Part shown: piece after piece, positions 7,538-17,907 of the stretch | How positions within the stretch are numbered: the stretch's first letter is position 1 | Layout of the letters: each line of letters opens with the position of its first letter | Virus record (IMG/VR): IMGVR_UViG_650377933_000003 | Source: a virus | Lineage: Duplodnaviria > Heunggongvirae > Uroviricota > Caudoviricetes | DNA: 45,850 nt | Direction: 5' to 3' (one strand) | Position numbers and translations under genes: made by a program | The notes under the pieces: generated by a model | What the model saw: the letters and a program-made list of their open reading frames with translations, nothing else | Database searches by the model: none | What the model was told of the DNA's origin: nothing

Positions 7538-10500
7538 TCAACGGATACTGATACCGGAAGCAGCTTTTTTGGTCACAATCACCGTACAGTCTGTGATGTT
7601 ACCTGCGCCCTGATTGCCTTTCTGGAAAATCTTAAACTCCAGAGTGACGTTACCACCACCACTCGGCATATCAATAACCGCACTGTAACTACCGGGAATG
7701 GCTCCTTTAGTTTCTCTGGATGCGATTAATACGCCATTTTTGCGAACTTCAAAACCATAACCCGTGTATCGCGTACCTCCCGGGTTATTACCGCTCCCCG
7801 GATCGTCATACGCCACACCGTTAAAAATAATGGGCGGAATAATGATTTGGCGGTCAAAGTTATGATCATCGTAAATGGTGACTGTAACCGTCCCGTTTGG
7901 TGTTTCCGTGTTACCCCACGTACCAGCCTTTTTCGGGAATGATTTGGATACAGTTTTAACGAAGTCACCTCTGACCTGGTTCGCCTCCAGCATGCCCTTA
8001 ATCGTACAGTTTTCATTTACCGTGACATTATTGAGCGTCCCGGAGTTCGCATTCACGTTACCGCTGATATCGGCATTTTTCGCCGTCAGCCGCCCGTCCG
8101 GTGTCAGGGAAAATACCGGAGGATTGCCGCCACTGGTAATGGTGGGAGCCGTCAGATACTTCAGGAACACTTCGTTCATGAATATCTGGTTGCCCTGCGC
8201 CACAAACATCGGCGTTTCATTCCCGTTTGCCGGGTCAATAAACGCGATACGGTTAGCGGCAACCAGGAACTGGCTCAGTTTGCCTTCCTCCGTATCCTCC
8301 ATGCTGAGGCCAAGCCCCGCGACATAATGTTTGCCGTCTTTGGTCTGCTCAATTTTGACGCCCCACATGGCATTCCATTTATCGTTGGCGTCCTTCCACT
8401 CTTTCGAAAACTCCTCCAGTCTGCTGGCGTTATCCTCCGTCAGCTCGAGTTTTTCCAGCAGCTCCTTGCCGAGATGGGATTCGGTTATCTTGCCTTTGAA
8501 AAAATCCAGGTAACCTTCCGCATCATCGCTCGCCCGACCGACGGCCTCCACGAATGCCGATTTGCCAACGGTGTTCACACTGCGGATATAAAAGTAATAA
8601 TCATGGCCCGGTTTGATATTGATACTGGCGGCTATCCAGTACAGCGCCGTACCAAGATAGCGGGCTGTGGTTTCAACCTGCCTGATATCGGTAATCCGCT
8701 TTTCCGAGAACCAGAACTCAAACTGTACCGTCGGATCATAAACCGCAAGATGCGGCGTGGCGGTTATCTGAAAATAGCCCGGCGTCAGCTCAATCCGCGA
8801 TGGTGCTGCCGGTGCGGCAATCCGGAACGATACCGACGCCGGATCGCCCTGCTGCCCCCACGCATTTACCGCCCGGACTGTCAGACTGTAATTTCCCAGA
8901 GCCAGCTGCCTGAAGCGGTATGTGGTTTCCGTCGTCCGGGCCGTGCTGACCAGCCGCTCACTGCCGTCATCCGCTGCCACGGTCAGGCGAAGCATAAAGC
9001 TCACGCCCTTCACCACCTTCGGCGTATCCCAGCGCGCCAGCACCTGGTATTCCCCGCTGTCTGCGGTGACTTCGGCGGTCAGGTGCTGCACCGCTGGCGG
9101 CGTGACACCATTCACCGTGCCGCTCTGGTCGCCGTCAAAGTGCGCCCCGTTATCCACGATGGCTTCTTTTTCCGGTACATGCTGCACGGCAGTGATGGCA
9201 TACGTGCCGTCATCGTTCTCACGGATACTCACACAGCGGAACAGGCGCTGACGCAACGTCGGCAACTTCAGCCCCCACACACTGTATTCTGCAACGCCGT
9301 CAGGAACCCGATTCACTTTCACCTTAAGTCCGTCGGTGACGGACTGAACCTCCACGCTGACCGGATTACCACTTCCGTCAACCAGGCTTATCAGCGTGGT
9401 ACCGGAGGATGGCAGCGTGATTTCACGGTCGAGCGTCAGCGTCCGGGTCTGGCTGTTCACCGCCAGCACGCGACCACCGGTGCTGATACCGGCATAGTCA
9501 TCATCGCAGATTTCAATGACATCGCCCGGTACATGGCGAAGCCCTTCAGCACCCACGCTGAAATCCACGGTCTGCGTCTCCAGCAGTTCCGTTTTAATCA
9601 GCCACAGCCCGGCGCGGTGTGCCTGCCCCCGGCTGGTACAGCCAAAGGCATCCATCTTCGTGACATTACGACCGTAACGGGCAATGGCCTGCGTATCCTC
9701 CACAAGCTCTGTCGCCGTCTCCCAGCCGTTGTTCGGGTCAATCCAGTTCACCTCAACGGCATTATGGCGGTCCTTCAGGGCGCTGAAGCTGTAGCGGAAC
9801 GGCGCGCCATCATCCGGCATCACCACATTACTGCGGTTATAGGTCCACACCTTATCTGATGGTCGGTCCTGCACGAACGTCAGCGTCTGCCCGTTCCATA
9901 CCGGCATACAGCGCATCGCCGAGCAGAAATCACTGAGCACATCCCACGCCTTACGCTGCGTGGTCAGCCAGGCATTACAGGTGATGCGCGGCTCCGTGCC
10001 GCCAAAGCCGTCCGGCACCGACTGGTCGCAGTACTGGCCGATGACATACAGCGCCCATTTATCCACATCCGACGCACCAAGACGTTTTCCCATGCCGTAG
10101 CGCGGATGGGTCAGCATATCCCACAGACACCAGGCCATGTTGTTGCTGTATGCTGGCTTAAACGTTCCGTCCCAGATACCGCTGTATTGTCGCGTCTGCG
10201 GGTTATAGTTCGACGGCACCTGCAGAATGCGCCCGCGAAGATGATAATTACGACTCACCTGCTGGCTGCCGAACTGTTCCGAGTCCACCTGCACGCCGAC
10301 CAGTGCCGTGTTCGGGTAGCACTGTTTCACATCGATGATTTCGGTGTATGACGACCAGAGCGTTTTGTTCTGCAGCTGGTCTGTGGTGCTGTCCGGTGTC
10401 ATCCTGCGCATCCGGATATTAAACGGGCGCGGCGGCAGGTTACCCACCACCACCGATGCCAGATACTGTGAGGTGGTTTTGCCTTTAATGGTGATGTCTT

Positions 10501-13012: not shown

Positions 13013-13342
13013 CTATGCCACGACCTGTTCAAAATCTGCCGTTATGGTTACCCACAGCGCCCCCACGCTTGCCGACCATTTACGACAAACCACCCTGATC
13101 GGCCTCCAGTCATAAGGTGGCGTCCACTGAAATGCGCGGACGCCACCGTGCCGTTCCAGAAAGGCTTTTAAAGATGGGTGTTCACATTTACGAACACGTA
13201 TCGTCACGCTGTAAGTCGACAACTGGTTATTCAGTCCCGCCGCACGACGCTGTTCATAACCATCGCCCAGCTTCACTGTCACCACTTTCGGCTCTGATAC
13301 CACATTCATATCCGGGCGCACTTTCCAGTGAAACGTCTCCAT
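13013..13342 (-). CDS. M: Minor tail protein M
   Basis: 109 aa in the lambda M position and size; sequence resembles recalled gpM. Confidence 0.9.
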   Translation of the reverse strand: METFHWKVRPDMNVVSEPKVVTVKLGDGYEQRRAAGLNNQLSTYSVTIRVRKCEHPSLKAFLERHGGVRAFQWTPPYDWRPIRVVCRKWSASVGALWVTITADFEQVVA

Positions 13343-16300
13343 TACCGATATGCTCCACTTAACCGACCACCATCACGGGCCTGCTGTTGCATAAAGTCCG
13401 CTGCCGCTTTTTTCCCAAGGTCATAAACCACCTTCAGGGCAGCCGGACCTATCTGCCCGTTCGTGCCATCGTTATTGATCTCGATGTTGTACTGCGGGGA
13501 AAACATCGCCATACCTGAACCCCCAATATCCGCCACAACCCCCAGCTTACCGTCAGCACCACGACGCAATGGCAGAATGGCTTCAGGTCCCGCTTCCCCC
13601 ATCACACCCGCGCCTTTTGCAAAAGCAAAAAACGTCGGACGGTTAACCACCGTGCCACTGTAACGACTCAAATCAGCAGACTGATAAATCCCCCCATTGG
13701 CATTCAGGGAAAGGCTGCTGAGATCAAATCCCAGTACACTGCCAATCCCTTTTATCGATTTCATCATGGTTGCCTGCGCCAGGATTTTCGCCATATCTGA
13801 CAGCACAGAAGAGGTGAAGGATTTGAAATTGAGTTTGCCGGTAGTGACAAAAGTTGCCAGGCCATTTCCCATGTTGCTGAAGGCTGACGAGAACACCTGT
13901 TCTGCTGTTTCTGCCGTATTATCTGCATCCACGGTAAAATCCTGAAATGCACGCAGGACTCCGTTTTTCCAGTTACCCTGCACAACTTCAAGCTGTTGCC
14001 AGTAACGGCGATTCTCATTCAGTTGTCGGTTCAGGCTCTCCGTCAGCGCCTGCTCGGCCTTTCTGTAGTCATCCGTGTTATATGTCCCTTTCTGCTCACT
14101 ATCCCGCCTCAACTGCTCCAGCTGTTGCTGGTATTTCTGGCGAAGACTCAGTTGTACCTGATATCGCTGTCGCTGCTGATCACCCATACCCACCGTGGCG
14201 ATATCCAGGTCATGTTGCTGACGCTGAGCGCGCTCTTCTTCAGCCAGTTGACTGGTCAGCTGAATTGTTTTTTTCTTCAGCTCGTTGAGTGCCGTCTGTT
14301 TCTGAAGCTCCTGCTGTTTTACATCCAGCAGCGTCAGTGCCTGAATCAGTTCATCTTTACGGGCCAGCACACTCTTTTCATCTGCCGTCAGTTTTTTCCC
14401 GTCCAGGTCGCTGATGCGCTGCTGCAGAGCCAGGAGCTGTTTATGCGCTTCTGTCATCCTTTCCGTGGCAATGCCTGCTGACTGTCTGGCAGCAGCAATC
14501 TGTCCTTCCACCTGTGCCTGTTGCTGACTGTACTGCAGCAATAACCGGGTGGCCTCATCATTACGGGTTTCGCGTGTTTTTTTCTTACCGGATGCCAGGG
14601 CTTTCTCGTAACGTTCATTTTCACGTTGTATCGCCGCATCCCTGACAGTCTGATCGGCGTACTGCATGGCATTAATACGCGCAATTTCACGCTGATGTCG
14701 TGCAGCTTCCGTTTCATTCATCCGGTTCAGTGCAGCATTTTCAGCATTACGGCGTTTCTGTTGCTCCTGATAATTCCGCTCTGCCTGCTCTTTTGCATCC
14801 TGCAAATCCTTCTGGCGTTTTTTCTCCTGAAGATCGTTAAGACGCTGTTGATCGTATTCAACCTGAGAAGATGATGCCGTCCAGGGGAGTCTTTTCGCCC
14901 GCGACACTTTCTCCTGCAAAGTGGCAATCTGCGCATCCAGCGAATCTTCACGACCAATATTCATGGCCGCATCCCAGAACTGCTTCCACCAGTCAGACAA
15001 AGTTTGCAGCGTACTGCCCAGCGCATTGAGGTTATTATCAATATCCGCAGTACGCCGACCGGTTTCCTCTGCCAGTGCAGACATGGCTATCCGTGCCGCA
15101 TCACTGGACCGCCCCTGCTCTCCAAGGACGCGTATCTGCTCAAGCTGAGTGGCAGTAAGAAAATGCAGCTCATTGTCCAGAGACTTCGCGGCATTTACAG
15201 GATCATCCTTCAGCCGCTTAAACTGATTTATGGTATCGCTGACCGACTGGCCAACCGATCGCTCCATCTGTGCGGCAGCTCTCGCCACCATACCGATATC
15301 GTTTCCACGAAATGCACCACTCCCCACCACCTGAGCCAGCGCACCGGCTGCAGCATGTTGCGTGATACCATTCCCGGAAATAGCACGACTGAGCGTCCAC
15401 AGCTGCCCGGCAGTGACTCCGGCATAATGCCCCGTCAGCGACAGCTGGCGGTTAAATTCTTCCCCCTCCTTCTGACCGTCATACCAGGCTTTACCCAGAC
15501 CATAGACGGCCGCGGTAATACCGCCAATAACCCCGCCCAGCATCATGCCTTTCGGTGACATCAGTGTGTCTATCCATCCGGCACGGTTAGCCAGCGTTAT
15601 CCCGGATCCCCTTAGCGCCCCTAAATTGCCGCGGGCCAGTTCACCTATCAGAACGCCTATCTCCTGGCGGGCCGCTGCACTTTTCAGACCCAGCGAATGC
15701 GTGGCTTTTCCTGCCCGCTCCATTTTGCGGATATACACTTCTGCAGCACTGCTTACCCCCAGCTGGGCAGCCCTGGCACGAAGCAACTCAGAAGAAGAAA
15801 GATTCTGGCGGGTTGCCTGCTCTTTAAGCTGACGGATAAACGCCACTTTCTGTCGGGTAGCCTCTGCCTCAGCCTGCGTAAGAACACGGGTTTTCGCCGT
15901 AACCTCAGAAATCAGCGCCAGATAATCCTGCTGACCAATCCCGCCACTGTTTCTGGCCTGTCGGATCTGCTGCTGAATACGCTGTAATTCCTGCAGCCCC
16001 GCACTGGCCTGTTTCACACTGTCAATCTGACGATAAAACGCAGCAGCCGCTTTATCCTGAGCCTCCGCCAGAGCCATGGCCTGCGCCTGTTCCTCGCGCA
16101 TTTTCTGGCTCAGTGCCTCCATGCGCTGGCGGGTTTTCTCCACCTCGCGGGCCATGCGTTCATGAGCCTGTGCGTTCTTCTCCACCGTCTGCGCATGGAC
16201 GGATGCGGCTGTTGCAGCCGAAGAAGCTGCCTGCGTTGTCTGCCGGGCGGCCTGAGTCTGACGCTCCATAAAACGCTGCATACGGGCAGAAGACCGTTCT

Positions 16301-16407
16301 GCATCGCTGGCTGCACCATTCAGAAGGTTTTTGATACGGGGAATTTCATTTTTAAACTCTGCCGCATCAATCCCCAAATCAATGACCAGGTTGGCTATCT
16401 GGTCCAT
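13342..16407 (-). CDS. H: Tail tape measure protein H
   Basis: About 1020 aa, coiled-coil Q/E/R-rich; C-terminus INNDGTNGQIGPAALKVVYD... matches recalled lambda H. Start chosen at the ATG at 16407 with GGAGG upstream (ORF track extends to 16437). Confidence 0.9.
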   Translation of the reverse strand: MDQIANLVIDLGIDAAEFKNEIPRIKNLLNGAASDAERSSARMQRFMERQTQAARQTTQAASSAATAASVHAQTVEKNAQAHERMAREVEKTRQRMEALSQKMREEQAQAMALAEAQDKAAAAFYRQIDSVKQASAGLQELQRIQQQIRQARNSGGIGQQDYLALISEVTAKTRVLTQAEAEATRQKVAFIRQLKEQATRQNLSSSELLRARAAQLGVSSAAEVYIRKMERAGKATHSLGLKSAAARQEIGVLIGELARGNLGALRGSGITLANRAGWIDTLMSPKGMMLGGVIGGITAAVYGLGKAWYDGQKEGEEFNRQLSLTGHYAGVTAGQLWTLSRAISGNGITQHAAAGALAQVVGSGAFRGNDIGMVARAAAQMERSVGQSVSDTINQFKRLKDDPVNAAKSLDNELHFLTATQLEQIRVLGEQGRSSDAARIAMSALAEETGRRTADIDNNLNALGSTLQTLSDWWKQFWDAAMNIGREDSLDAQIATLQEKVSRAKRLPWTASSSQVEYDQQRLNDLQEKKRQKDLQDAKEQAERNYQEQQKRRNAENAALNRMNETEAARHQREIARINAMQYADQTVRDAAIQRENERYEKALASGKKKTRETRNDEATRLLLQYSQQQAQVEGQIAAARQSAGIATERMTEAHKQLLALQQRISDLDGKKLTADEKSVLARKDELIQALTLLDVKQQELQKQTALNELKKKTIQLTSQLAEEERAQRQQHDLDIATVGMGDQQRQRYQVQLSLRQKYQQQLEQLRRDSEQKGTYNTDDYRKAEQALTESLNRQLNENRRYWQQLEVVQGNWKNGVLRAFQDFTVDADNTAETAEQVFSSAFSNMGNGLATFVTTGKLNFKSFTSSVLSDMAKILAQATMMKSIKGIGSVLGFDLSSLSLNANGGIYQSADLSRYSGTVVNRPTFFAFAKGAGVMGEAGPEAILPLRRGADGKLGVVADIGGSGMAMFSPQYNIEINNDGTNGQIGPAALKVVYDLGKKAAADFMQQQARDGGRLSGAYR

Positions 16408-17106
16408 AACGCACACCTCCGGAAATACCTTCCCCAAGATGCATCAGTTCTTCGTCCGTTCTCTCCGGTATCCCGTTCTCTTCCGGTAAAAGGCTGAAAT
16501 CAGCCACCGCAGCATCACTGCTGCCGGACACCATTCTCACGATCAATGCCTTCAGCGAGGCAAACTGCGCATCCATCCACACATCACTGAAGCTCTGCAT
16601 CCGGAAATAATCGCCCCACTCACCAAGCTCAGTGGCCGACATTTCCGACAGCATCCGCCGCCAGTCTGCCCGCCGGAACTCCCGGGCAAGCCGCATGACA
16701 AACTGCATTTCCCGCGTCAGGACTTTTCCGGCGTCAGCGCCTCATGCTCATCATCCACGGCATTATCAATGGCCCCCATACCGCTCAGCGACAGAACCAT
16801 CTCCGCCCCCGCACCCAGGGCATCATACGACCATGTTGTAATAACGGATGCGCAAAGCGTCTCTACATCCTTAGACTGATCCGCATTCCACAGTGAGCGG
16901 GAAACCAGCCAGGCATTGATATCCATCCCCATCCGCAGAAAAGCAATCTGTCGTTCAGCCTCCGGCAGTTCTCCCTCCACGGCATCAAACTTTGCCGTTC
17001 GCTGCTGAACAAACGTCAGATATTCAATTCTCTGCAGCCCGGACAGCTCACTGAGCACCACGGACTGTTTTTCATAATTAAACGTGTCCTGTTTCAGAAA
17101 CATCAT
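16379..17106 (-). CDS. Tail assembly chaperone G-T, predicted product of a -1 programmed frameshift near the end of G
   Basis: The T-like frame (16379..16708 and open upstream past 16735) lies in the -1 frame relative to G and overlaps its 3' end; a GGAAAAG slippery-like heptamer sits at 16723..16729 on the coding strand. Confidence 0.6.
16717..17106 (-). CDS. G: Tail assembly chaperone G
   Basis: Start MMFLKQDTFNYE... with GGTGGAG upstream, resembling recalled lambda G (MFLKTESFEH...); stop codon at 16717..16719. Confidence 0.85.
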   Translation of the reverse strand: MMFLKQDTFNYEKQSVVLSELSGLQRIEYLTFVQQRTAKFDAVEGELPEAERQIAFLRMGMDINAWLVSRSLWNADQSKDVETLCASVITTWSYDALGAGAEMVLSLSGMGAIDNAVDDEHEALTPEKS

Positions 17107-17163
17107 GTTCTCCACCTGCAAAAAAGCCCCGCATAACCGGGGCAAATGATGAGTATCGTCCTG

Positions 17164-17907
17164 TTAACCTGCTGCGCTGACAGTCACCGCAGTCACAGCC
17201 ACAAAATTCCCGTCAGCGGTCATGCCCACAATGCTGACACTGCCCTGCTTCACGCCTTTTACCGTGGCCACAAGTCCGTTCAGGGTAACCGTGGCAGTCT
17301 GTGGATCTGACGAATGCACACTGATCGCTTTGTCACTGGCTCCGTCAGGTTTTACTGTAAAGGTCAGCGTGGTGGTTGCTCCCACTTTTACACTGGCAGA
17401 CGCCGGTGATACTGTCAGCCCGGTAACGCTCACGGTTTCAGTGCCTTCCTCTGCCAGATACGGACGCCCCACACCGCTGATTTTCACAGTGCGGGTCATC
17501 ACGTCTTTTGAGGCAATGGTTTTACCCAGTGAGCTCAGCCAGCCACGGAAAACATCAACAGTGCCGTTGGGATATTTGATACGAAACGCGCAGACTTCAC
17601 CGGAGTCGAACAACTGAACCAGTTTTTTCTGCCCGCTGTCACCCGGACGCCAGGCCAGCGTCGCCGAAGTATCACCAACGGATTTCTGCCCCTGGGTTGT
17701 CGTTTTCCAGTCTGCATCTTCATCATCGAGATAAGTGTCATCTTCTGCATCAGCGGTCATTTCGCCAGGTTGCAGATCCTTCACCATCGCAAGACGCAGC
17801 CAGTCAGTGTCCGACAAAGGGTTCGCAAACGCATCGCCGTTGCCGGTATACATCCAGAACGTCGTCCCCGCACCTTTCGTCTTTGCCAGTGGATTTGGTG
17901 TGGTCAT
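17164..17907 (-). CDS. V: Major tail protein V with C-terminal Ig-like (Big_2-type) domain
   Basis: Start at the ATG at 17907 with AAGGAGG upstream (MTTPNPLAKTKGAGTTFW...); lambda V-like throughout. Confidence 0.9.
   Translation of the reverse strand: MTTPNPLAKTKGAGTTFWMYTGNGDAFANPLSDTDWLRLAMVKDLQPGEMTADAEDDTYLDDEDADWKTTTQGQKSVGDTSATLAWRPGDSGQKKLVQLFDSGEVCAFRIKYPNGTVDVFRGWLSSLGKTIASKDVMTRTVKISGVGRPYLAEEGTETVSVTGLTVSPASASVKVGATTTLTFTVKPDGASDKAISVHSSDPQTATVTLNGLVATVKGVKQGSVSIVGMTADGNFVAVTAVTVSAAG

What the first reader, a model, noticed from the sequence alone, without database searches (positions are those of the whole stretch)
16717..16735. G-T tail-chaperone frameshift appears to use GGAAAAG rather than the lambda-type GGGAAAG heptamer
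The T-like frame is in the -1 frame relative to G and is open across the last G codons, as required for the conserved G-T frameshift. At the overlap the coding strand reads CCG GAA AAG TCC TGA, so the only slippery-like element is G-GAA-AAG (Lys AAG sliding onto AAA) just before the G stop, not the canonical G-GGA-AAG I recall from lambda. Either slippage relies mainly on the A-AAG lysine shift or the site is non-canonical.
Basis: partly seen in the sequence, partly recalled or inferred. Interest (0 to 1): 0.4.

Follow-up and report, generated by a model that had tools for sequence, protein, structure and literature searches.

The report
Phage tail G-T frameshift site GGAAAAG
The phage tail-assembly genes G and T are joined here by a ribosomal -1 frameshift at GGAAAAG instead of lambda's GGGAAAG. 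This is real but ordinary: GGAAAAG is the commonest variant among enterobacterial lambda-like phages and is already annotated as the slippery sequence in phages N15 and phi80.

Summary
On the minus strand, gene G (17106..16717) ends ...CCG GAA AAG TCC TGA. The T frame is -1 relative to G and opens only at 16741. The only slippery element in that 25-nt overlap is G GAA AAG (16729..16723). It is not a base-calling error: about 100 close relatives all read GGAAAAG. It is also not peculiar to this phage. At the homologous position, 11 codons before the T motif LAREFGRPDW, 28 of 37 divergent lineages use GGAAAAG, including N15, phi80, Gifsy-2 and prophages of at least 15 enterobacterial genera. Lambda's GGGAAAG is a minority state. 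The GenBank records of N15 and phi80 already label GGAAAAG "slippery sequence for -1 translational frameshift". Across the 28 lineages all seven bases are invariant, including three synonymous positions, while neighbouring synonymous sites vary freely. That points to tandem slippage: tRNA-Lys moves AAG to AAA, and tRNA-Glu moves GAA to GGA with a central G·U pair. This goes beyond a lone A-AAG slip. I found no conserved downstream RNA structure. A GAGG lies 10 nt upstream but is not conserved. Verdict: already known at the annotation level, low interest. No experiment was found that confirms a GT product or measures frameshift efficiency at this heptamer in a phage context.

The parts
16717..17106 (-). 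Gene G, tail assembly chaperone (129 aa, MMFLKQ...TPEKS*). This is the zero-frame product.
   Evidence: Translation. Pfam PF06894 Phage_TAC_2 at E=5.9e-40. Same extent as the mEp460 CDS 8788..9177.
16723..16729 (-). Slippery heptamer G GAA AAG, the proposed -1 frameshift site. The zero frame reads Glu-Lys and the -1 frame reads GGA AAA.
   Evidence: Invariant in 28/28 divergent homologous loci. The same heptamer is annotated as the slippery sequence in N15 and phi80.
16717..16741 (-). G/T overlap: the only 25 nt where the -1 (T) frame is open while G is still being read.
   Evidence: The T frame has a stop at 16744-16742. In relatives the equivalent overlap is as short as 16 nt and still contains the heptamer (L149, L132).
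16379..16723 (-). T segment, read in the -1 frame after the shift, with G16723 re-read. It contributes 114 aa to a predicted 242-aa GT fusion, i.e. join(17106..16723, 16723..16379).
   Evidence: Translation. Pfam PF06223 Phage_tail_T at E=5e-15. The fusion aligns end to end with the lambda, phi80 and Gifsy-2 GT proteins, with junctions PEK|VL, AEK|AL and AGK|VF.
16740..16743 (-). Shine-Dalgarno-like GAGG 10 nt upstream of the heptamer. A possible stimulator, not established.
   Evidence: Sequence. GAGG at the same 10-nt spacing occurs in 6 of 28 GGAAAAG lineages and is absent from the phi80/N15 group. My hand-computed Fisher test on GAG versus GAA at that codon gives p of about 0.1.
16706..16708 (-). 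In-frame ATG used by database annotations as the start of a stand-alone 109-aa T ORF. It is probably not a real start.
   Evidence: Annotated this way in mEp460 and in RefSeq/PGAP. The Met is absent at this position in Gifsy-2, phi80, N15 and lambda.
17164..17907 (-). Major tail protein V, the upstream neighbour.
   Evidence: Pfam PF16461 Phage_TTP_12 at E=5e-67, plus Big_2. ATG at 17907 preceded by AAGGAGG.
13342..16407 (-). Tape measure protein H, the downstream neighbour. It overlaps the T 3' end by 29 nt.
   Evidence: Pfam TMP_2, TMP_4 and Tape_meas_lam_C. ATG at 16407 preceded by GGAGG.

Best explanation
This is the conserved programmed -1 ribosomal frameshift that produces the GT tail-assembly chaperone of a lambda-like siphophage. 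The window is 99.8% identical to phages mEp460_ev081 and PhiR55_1 over this region.

Proposed mechanism. Most ribosomes read ...CCG GAA AAG TCC and stop at TGA, giving gpG. A small fraction slip back one base with tRNA-Glu on GAA in the P site and tRNA-Lys on AAG in the A site. tRNA-Lys (anticodon mnm5s2UUU) re-pairs perfectly with AAA. tRNA-Glu (anticodon mnm5s2UUC) re-pairs with GGA through G:C, a central G·U and A:U. Reading then continues as GTC CTG ACG... into T, giving a 242-aa GT fusion with junction ...TPEK|VLTREMQF....

G GAA AAG is one substitution away from lambda's G GGA AAG. It is the predominant, probably ancestral, state of this site in Enterobacterales.

What is shown: the frame arrangement, the homology, the position and the nucleotide-level selection on all seven bases. 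What is inferred: that the shift actually occurs, its efficiency, and that both tRNAs slip together.
For: 1. Gene order V-G-T-H, with Pfam matches for G and T.
2. T is in the -1 frame, and the 25-nt overlap contains only this slippery element.
3. The heptamer always ends exactly 11 codons (plus 2 nt) before the T motif ARE[FM]GRPDW in the 35 enterobacterial clusters (12 codons in the two Vibrio loci). It is therefore the same site as lambda's proven GGGAAAG.
4. In 28 divergent GGAAAAG lineages, codon -2 is NNG in 28/28 (GCG 12, CCG 8, CTG 5, TTG 1, GTG 1, ACG 1). Glu is GAA in 28/28 and Lys is AAG in 28/28. By contrast the Glu at codon -6 is GAA 13 / GAG 12, and codon -3 uses all four third bases.
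5. In some lineages the overlap shrinks to 16 nt and still holds the heptamer.
6. The N15 and phi80 GenBank records annotate GGAAAAG as "slippery sequence for -1 translational frameshift".
7. A_AA.G is the most shift-prone tetramer in E. coli (PMC4066793).
8. The same GAA-to-GGA re-pairing through G·U has been proposed for actinophage chaperone frameshift sites of the GGGGGAA type (PMC10885494).
9. No variant heptamer appears in more than 100 close relatives.
Against: No protein-level evidence for GT from a GGAAAAG site was found in the searchable literature.

In a reconstituted E. coli system, AUG GAA AAG was chosen as the unfavourable or "less slippery" sequence. It gave mainly zero-frame product with wild-type EF-G (PMC6924986).

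In reporters, A_AAG without a stimulator is barely above background (PMC4066793). No conserved downstream structure exists here: single-sequence fold z-scores are -0.6 and +0.3, and alifold gives -1.4 kcal/mol, no better than column shuffles. How the site reaches a useful efficiency is therefore not explained.

The 28 lineages are phylogenetically related, so the invariance counts are not independent trials.
Confidence: 0.8

Rival explanations
1. The slip involves tRNA-Lys alone, on A AAG. This would be the hexanucleotide NNA AAG type, like CGA AAG in B. subtilis cdd or IS1222. The P-site tRNA-Glu would not re-pair and would merely release the third-position A.
For: A_AA.G is by far the best tetramer in E. 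coli (PMC4066793). [quoted passage not shown] CGA AAG precedents are cited in PMC5009743.
Against: A lone A-AAG slip does not need the base before GAA. That base is nevertheless G in 28/28 lineages, across six different codons encoding five amino acids, while adjacent third positions are saturated. Every alternative state seen at this site also has near-cognate or cognate P-site re-pairing (GGGAAAG, AAAAAAG, GGGAAAA, CCCAAAA). The exception is GGCAAAA. Tetramer sites normally need a strong stimulator, and none is conserved here.
Confidence: 0.15
2. There is no frameshift in this lineage. T would be made as a free 109-aa protein from the ATG at 16708, for instance by termination-reinitiation 8 nt after the G stop. 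This is how databases annotate it.
For: An in-frame ATG lies at 16708, 8 nt after TGA. mEp460 and RefSeq/PGAP annotate a stand-alone T ORF.
Against: The ATG is not conserved in Gifsy-2, phi80, N15 or lambda homologues. The only purine-rich stretch upstream (GGGAA) abuts the ATG, which is too close for a Shine-Dalgarno sequence. The heptamer is invariant in more than 100 close relatives and in 28 divergent lineages at synonymous positions, which a free-standing T would not require. From established knowledge of lambda (Xu, Hendrix and Duda 2013/2014, cited in PMC5009743), T works only when tethered to G.
Confidence: 0.04
3. Sequencing or base-calling error, or transcriptional slippage. Either the true sequence is GGGAAAG, or the frame change is made by RNA polymerase on the A run.
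For: None beyond the one-base difference from lambda.
Against: The identical GGAAAAG appears in 81 IMG/VR contigs, in 7 close genome-contig loci and in many independently sequenced genera. The segment occurs in 1844 of 5426 complete E. coli genomes. A run of four A is far below the length generally needed for transcriptional slippage (established knowledge; poly-A/T runs longer than 7-8 nt are cited in PMC3711429).
Confidence: 0.01

Closest known systems
Phage lambda G/GT -1 programmed frameshift at G GGA AAG (Levin, Hendrix and Casjens 1993; Xu, Hendrix and Duda 2004, 2013, 2014; cited in PMC5009743)
   Same: The genes are homologous (PF06894 plus PF06223) and the order V-G-T-H is the same. 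T is in the -1 frame with no start of its own. The shift site is at the same aligned position, 11 codons before LAREMGRPDW. The A-site event is the same, Lys AAG to AAA. No conserved downstream structure was detected here.
   Different: Heptamer position 3 is A instead of G. The P-site codon is therefore GAA (Glu) instead of GGA (Gly). Its -1 re-pairing has a central G·U rather than a third-position wobble. The GT proteins are only about 34% identical. In this lineage the G stop is 1 codon after the heptamer, against 5 in lambda.
N15 gene 14/15 and phi80 gene 14/G-T, with GGAAAAG annotated as "slippery sequence for -1 translational frameshift"
   Same: The heptamer GGAAAAG is identical, at the homologous position and in the same phase (N15 10027-10033; phi80 10194-10200). 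The gene family and gene order are the same.
   Different: The proteins are about 37% identical to the window's GT. The preceding codon is GCG (Ala) instead of CCG (Pro). The G stop is 5 codons after the heptamer. There is no GAGG 10 nt upstream.
Salmonella prophage Gifsy-2 G / G+G' frameshift hybrid
   Same: It is the closest divergent relative with an annotated frameshift, at 54.5% identity. The local sequence ACG CCG GAA AAG TCC TGA is identical, and so is the GAGG 10 nt upstream.
   Different: It is a Salmonella host prophage. The T frame has no ATG just downstream of the G stop.
E. coli dnaX A AAA AAG and hexanucleotide NNA AAG sites (cdd and IS1222, CGA AAG)
   Same: All rely on tRNA-Lys(mnm5s2UUU) preferring AAA over AAG in E. 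coli. The window also has an SD-like GAGG 10 nt upstream, the spacing I recall for dnaX; the papers read here confirm only that dnaX has an upstream SD-like stimulator.
   Different: dnaX needs a strong downstream stem-loop and reaches 50-80% efficiency. No stem-loop is detected here. The expected efficiency is a few percent at most. Unlike CGA AAG sites, the base before the P-site codon is under selection.

Membership tests
Lambda-type G/GT tail assembly chaperone with -1 programmed frameshift | The upstream ORF is a gpG-family chaperone. | tested here: met
   PF06894 Phage_TAC_2 at E=5.9e-40, covering 123 of 126 profile positions.
Lambda-type G/GT tail assembly chaperone with -1 programmed frameshift | The downstream segment is a gpT homologue in the -1 frame. 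It overlaps the G 3' end and has no conserved start of its own. | tested here: met
   PF06223 at E=5e-15. The -1 frame is open from 16741. The local ATG at 16708 is not conserved in relatives.
Lambda-type G/GT tail assembly chaperone with -1 programmed frameshift | Located between the major tail protein gene and the tape measure gene. | tested here: met
   V lies at 17907..17164 and H at 16407..13342 on the same strand.
Lambda-type G/GT tail assembly chaperone with -1 programmed frameshift | A strict X XXY YYZ slippery heptamer lies in the overlap. | tested here: not met
   G GAA AAG has YYZ = AAG, but the first triplet is G-GA rather than XXX. It is a one-mismatch, G·U-compatible near-heptamer at the position homologous to lambda's GGGAAAG.
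Lambda-type G/GT tail assembly chaperone with -1 programmed frameshift | A GT fusion protein is made at a low ratio to G (about 1:30 in lambda). | not testable with these tools
   This needs a western blot, mass spectrometry or a reporter assay. No published measurement for a GGAAAAG phage site was found.
N15/phi80-type GGAAAAG G-T frameshift site | GGAAAAG sits in phase G GAA AAG, ending 11 codons before the T motif ARE[FM]GRPDW. | tested here: met
   The window and 27 further divergent lineages, N15 and phi80 included, share exactly this register.
Single-tRNA A_AAG tetramer / NNA AAG hexanucleotide frameshift sites | Only A AAG is required, and the base 5' of the P-site codon is free. | tested here: not met
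   The 5' base is G in 28/28 lineages despite six different codons at that position.
dnaX-type stimulated -1 frameshift | An upstream SD-like element at about 10 nt together with a downstream stem-loop, both conserved. | tested here: inconclusive
   GAGG is present 10 nt upstream in the window, but in only 6 of 28 lineages. No downstream structure rises above shuffled controls.

The most novel reading that the evidence does not exclude
G GAA AAG would be a genuine two-tRNA slippery heptamer whose P-site tRNA-Glu re-pairs through a central G·U. On this reading it is the ancestral and dominant G-T shift site of enterobacterial lambda-like phages. It is under purifying selection on all seven bases, and it delivers the low GT:G ratio without any RNA stimulator. 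Yet ribosome biochemists have used it as a "non-slippery" control, and X_XXY_YYZ-based gene finders and RefSeq annotation miss it. If so, the rule set for bacterial -1 frameshift motifs should include this near-cognate class. The GT fusion is also left unannotated in the T-segment annotations checked for this lineage (one RefSeq genome and the mEp460 record), a lineage that occurs in about a third of complete E. coli genomes.
Probability: 0.55. Interest if true: 0.35.

Novelty: already known. Interest (0 to 1): 0.2.

Why it matters
The practical value is in annotation. This G-T segment occurs in 1844 of 5426 complete E. coli genomes. In the two annotated copies of this lineage that I inspected, T is a free-standing 109-aa ORF rather than a GT slippage product.

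For recoding biology, the comparative pattern is a clean natural experiment. All seven bases are invariant across at least 15 genera while neighbouring synonymous sites vary. That suggests a heptamer with a second-position G·U in the P site is good enough, and perhaps preferred, for a low-efficiency programmed shift. This does not change what is known about the G/GT mechanism. The site was recognised by the Hendrix-lab annotations of N15 and phi80 years ago.

Tried and rejected
1. Downstream stimulatory RNA structure. I folded the 63 and 103 nt after the heptamer and got z = +0.31 and -0.61 against dinucleotide shuffles. RNAalifold on 28 divergent GGAAAAG loci gave -1.4 kcal/mol, no better than column-shuffled alignments, 48 of 200 of which folded at least as well. 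Rejected.

2. Upstream SD-like stimulator. GAGG sits 10 nt upstream in the window and in 5 other lineages, 6 of 28 in total. It coincides with a conserved Glu codon followed by a G-initial codon. The GAG versus GAA preference is not significant, at about p=0.1 by a hand-computed Fisher test on the counts. Left as unproven.

3. Base-calling error. Rejected.

4. Heptamer enrichment in the window. There is none: 11 observed against 8.3 expected.

5. Literature search for an explicit description or measurement of G GAA AAG in phage tails. The only hit was its use as a low-slippage control in vitro (PMC6924986). Xu et al. 2004 and Licznar et al. 2003 are not held in the library. I could therefore not check whether they list or measure this heptamer.

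6. Independent translation of T from ATG 16708. Considered and judged unlikely, because the start is not conserved and no properly spaced SD is present.

Full report
**Observation.** The genes lie on the minus strand. The coding strand reads ...GAT GAG CAT GAG GCG CTG ACG CCG GAA AAG TCC TGA CGC GGG AAA TGC AG..., with TGA at 16719-16717.
- The ORF 17106..16717 encodes a 129-aa protein (MMFLKQ...TPEKS) that matches Pfam PF06894, the lambda tail assembly chaperone G, at E=5.9e-40.
- The frame one base upstream (-1) has a stop at 16744-16742 and is open from 16741 to its stop at 16381-16379. It encodes GADAGKVLTREMQFVMRLAREFRRADWRRML..., which matches PF06223 (minor tail protein T) at E=5e-15.
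- The flanking genes are the major tail protein V (17907..17164; PF16461 plus Big_2) and the tape measure protein H (16407..13342; TMP_2, TMP_4, Tape_meas_lam_C).
- A -1 shift must therefore occur within eight G codons.
- The heptamer alone is not rare: 11 copies in the window against 8.3 expected. Its position and phase are what matter.

**Identity of the window.** The 1.2-kb region is 99.8% identical to Escherichia phages mEp460_ev081 and PhiR55_1, and 96.7-98.5% identical to mEp460, cdtI, Tritos, Ayreon and others. The 341 nt around the junction occur in 1844 of 5426 complete E. coli genomes. This is a common lambdoid prophage tail module.

**Not a sequencing error.** All 81 IMG/VR relatives carry GGAAAAG. 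The only local variants are GAGGTG in place of GAGGCG, and GTCATGA in place of GTCCTGA. The 7 close genome-contig loci from E. coli, Shigella and E. ruysiae agree.

**Comparison across the family.** I fetched divergent homologues from the phage collection. I also fetched 64 loci from one-genome-per-species contigs using a GT alignment.
- Of 150 loci with complete G and T, 102 are unique and fall into 37 clusters.
- In every enterobacterial cluster the candidate heptamer ends exactly 11 codons plus 2 nt before the invariant T motif ARE[FM]GRPDW. The GT fusions align across the junction as PEK|VL (window, Gifsy-2), AEK|AL (phi80, N15, mEp237, Klebsiella), AGK|VF (lambda) and SKK|AF (ASU11). This is one homologous site.
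- States found at the site: GGAAAAG in 28 clusters; GGGAAAG in 3 (the lambda clade, the PhiR5_1 clade and Edwardsiella); GGGAAAA in 1 (Providencia rustigianii); AAAAAAG in 1 (ASU11/Stx phages); GGCAAAA followed by TAG in 2 (Kluyvera genomosp. 1, Ewingella); CCCAAAA in 2 Vibrio loci.
- The GGAAAAG clusters include N15, phi80, mEp213, mEp237 and Gifsy-2. They also include prophages of Citrobacter, Kosakonia, Leclercia, Kluyvera, Atlantibacter, Klebsiella, Enterobacter, Trabulsiella, Providencia, Sodalis, Pluralibacter, Phytobacter, Pseudocitrobacter, Superficieibacter and Symbiopectobacterium.
- A rough neighbour-joining tree of GT proteins places GGAAAAG over almost the whole enterobacterial part of the tree, with the other states as local patches.
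- Lambda's heptamer is therefore the minority form, and the window's heptamer is the common and probably older one.

**Already recognised.** The N15 record (NC_001901) carries a misc_feature "slippery sequence for -1 translational frameshift" at 10027-10033, which reads GGAAAAG. The phi80 record FN582354 has the same feature at 10194-10200, plus a joined gpG-T CDS. By my register calculation from the sequence, that feature is G GAA AAG. Gifsy-2 annotates its T as "part of G+G' frameshift hybrid protein". By contrast, the mEp460 record and RefSeq/PGAP annotate T as a separate 109-aa ORF starting at the ATG that corresponds to window 16708. That Met is not conserved in Gifsy-2, phi80, N15 or lambda, so it is most likely an annotation convenience.

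**Mechanism.** Across the 28 divergent GGAAAAG lineages:
- The codon before GAA is GCG (12), CCG (8), CTG (5), TTG, GTG or ACG (1 each). That is five amino acids and six codons, all ending in G.
- Glu is GAA in 28/28, and Lys is AAG in 28/28.
- In the same alignment, the Glu five codons upstream is GAA 13 / GAG 12. The codon at -3 uses all four third bases (ACG 6, ACC 4, ACA 4, ACT 1, and others).

Three synonymous positions inside the heptamer are thus frozen while neighbouring ones are saturated. Selection acts on the RNA sequence G-GAA-AAG.

The requirement for the first G is what tandem slippage predicts. After a -1 move, tRNA-Glu (anticodon UUC) faces GGA and pairs through C36:G, U35·G and U34:A, while tRNA-Lys moves from AAG to its preferred AAA. 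A slip of tRNA-Lys alone would not constrain that G.

The same GAA-to-GGA re-pairing through G·U has been suggested for actinophage chaperone sites of the GGGGGAA type (PMC10885494). A_AA.G is the most shift-prone tetramer in E. coli (PMC4066793).

The lineages share ancestry, so the counts are not independent trials. The contrast with adjacent sites is the argument.

**Stimulators.**
- No downstream structure stands out. MFE z-scores are -0.61 (103 nt) and +0.31 (63 nt). The alignment fold of the 28 lineages gives -1.4 kcal/mol, which is indistinguishable from column shuffles.
- A GAGG lies at 16743-16740, 10 nt before the heptamer. As I recall, that is the spacing of the dnaX SD-like stimulator. 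It recurs at 10 nt in 6 of 28 lineages (window clade, Gifsy-2, L106, L107, L122, L151) but is absent from the N15/phi80 group. It falls on a conserved Glu codon, and the GAG preference there is not significant. I leave it as a possible lineage-specific enhancer.

**Tension with biochemistry.** Peng et al. (PMC6924986) chose AUG GAA AAG as the unfavourable sequence, citing the second-position mismatch. They saw mainly zero-frame product with wild-type EF-G, although EF-G domain-4 mutants raised shifting on it too. Sharma et al. found A_AAG without a stimulator barely above background, and even strict heptamers only 2- to 10-fold above a background of about 0.05%. The efficiency of the natural site is therefore unknown and probably low. 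Lambda needs only about a 1:30 GT:G ratio (PMC5009743). No measurement for a GGAAAAG phage site was found. Xu et al. 2004 and Licznar et al. 2003 could not be read.

**Rivals.**
- Lone A-AAG slippage is disfavoured by the invariant first G.
- Independent initiation or reinitiation of T at ATG 16708 is disfavoured by the non-conserved start and the frozen heptamer.
- Sequencing error is excluded.
- Transcriptional slippage on a run of four A is implausible.

**Verdict.** It is the ordinary, previously annotated N15/phi80-type heptamer rather than a novelty. Two residual points of interest remain. One is the clean comparative evidence that a near-cognate heptamer with a central G·U is selected as a whole. 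The other is that the annotations checked for this lineage (mEp460 and one RefSeq genome) do not join G and T.

Noticed in passing
window 17126-17143 (- strand), plus the T run to about 17120: A terminator-like hairpin, GCCCCG-GTTATG-CGGGGC followed by TTTTTT, sits in the 57-nt gap between the major tail gene V and gene G. The same feature is annotated as a rho-independent terminator in mEp460 and N15. It could attenuate transcription into G-T-H.
   Followed up: partly
window about 16488-16505 (- strand), inside T: The mEp460 record annotates a second "rho-independent terminator" within the T coding segment (GGCTGAtttCAGCC followed by TTTTA). It is weak, and my terminator scan did not call it.
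   Followed up: no
window 16379-16708 (- strand); L160 593-922: RefSeq/PGAP and the mEp460 record annotate T as a free-standing 109-aa ORF from a non-conserved ATG, with no ribosomal-slippage join. This G-T segment is present in 1844 of 5426 complete E. coli genomes.
   Followed up: partly
L103, L105, L133, L119, L149 (genome-contig loci): Other non-standard states occur at the same site, each directly followed by the G stop codon. They are CTG GCA AAA TAG (Kluyvera genomosp. 1, Ewingella), ATG GGA AAA TAG (Providencia rustigianii) and CTG GAA AAG TAG (Providencia huashanensis and P. heimbachae). In GGCAAAA the P-site tRNA cannot re-pair, so the adjacent stop codon may act as the pause.
   Followed up: no
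L136-L142, L144-L148, L154-L157 (genome-contig loci): G-T DNA identical to lambda across the junction appears on short contigs of unrelated assemblies; where the contig title gives coverage it is about 1x. These include Kitasatospora, Neobacillus, Oceanobacillus, Pseudomonas, Shewanella, Leeuwenhoekiella, Paenibacillus, Enterococcus and Pseudoxanthomonas. This is almost certainly lambda control-DNA contamination of those assemblies.
   Followed up: no
L002, L003, L004 (IMG/VR loci): Three prophage copies of this G-T module have indels that truncate G or T. For example, the L002 T frame stops after 37 codons, and L003 and L004 G are cut to 106 and 83 aa. These look like decaying prophages or assembly errors. 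L002 still keeps the GGAAAAG junction.
   Followed up: partly
all 28 GGAAAAG loci plus lambda, PhiR5_1 and ASU11; window 16722: The base immediately 3' of the heptamer is always a pyrimidine (C or T). This may simply reflect the first T-frame residue being Val or Ala (GYN). It could also be a 3' context effect on slippage.
   Followed up: no
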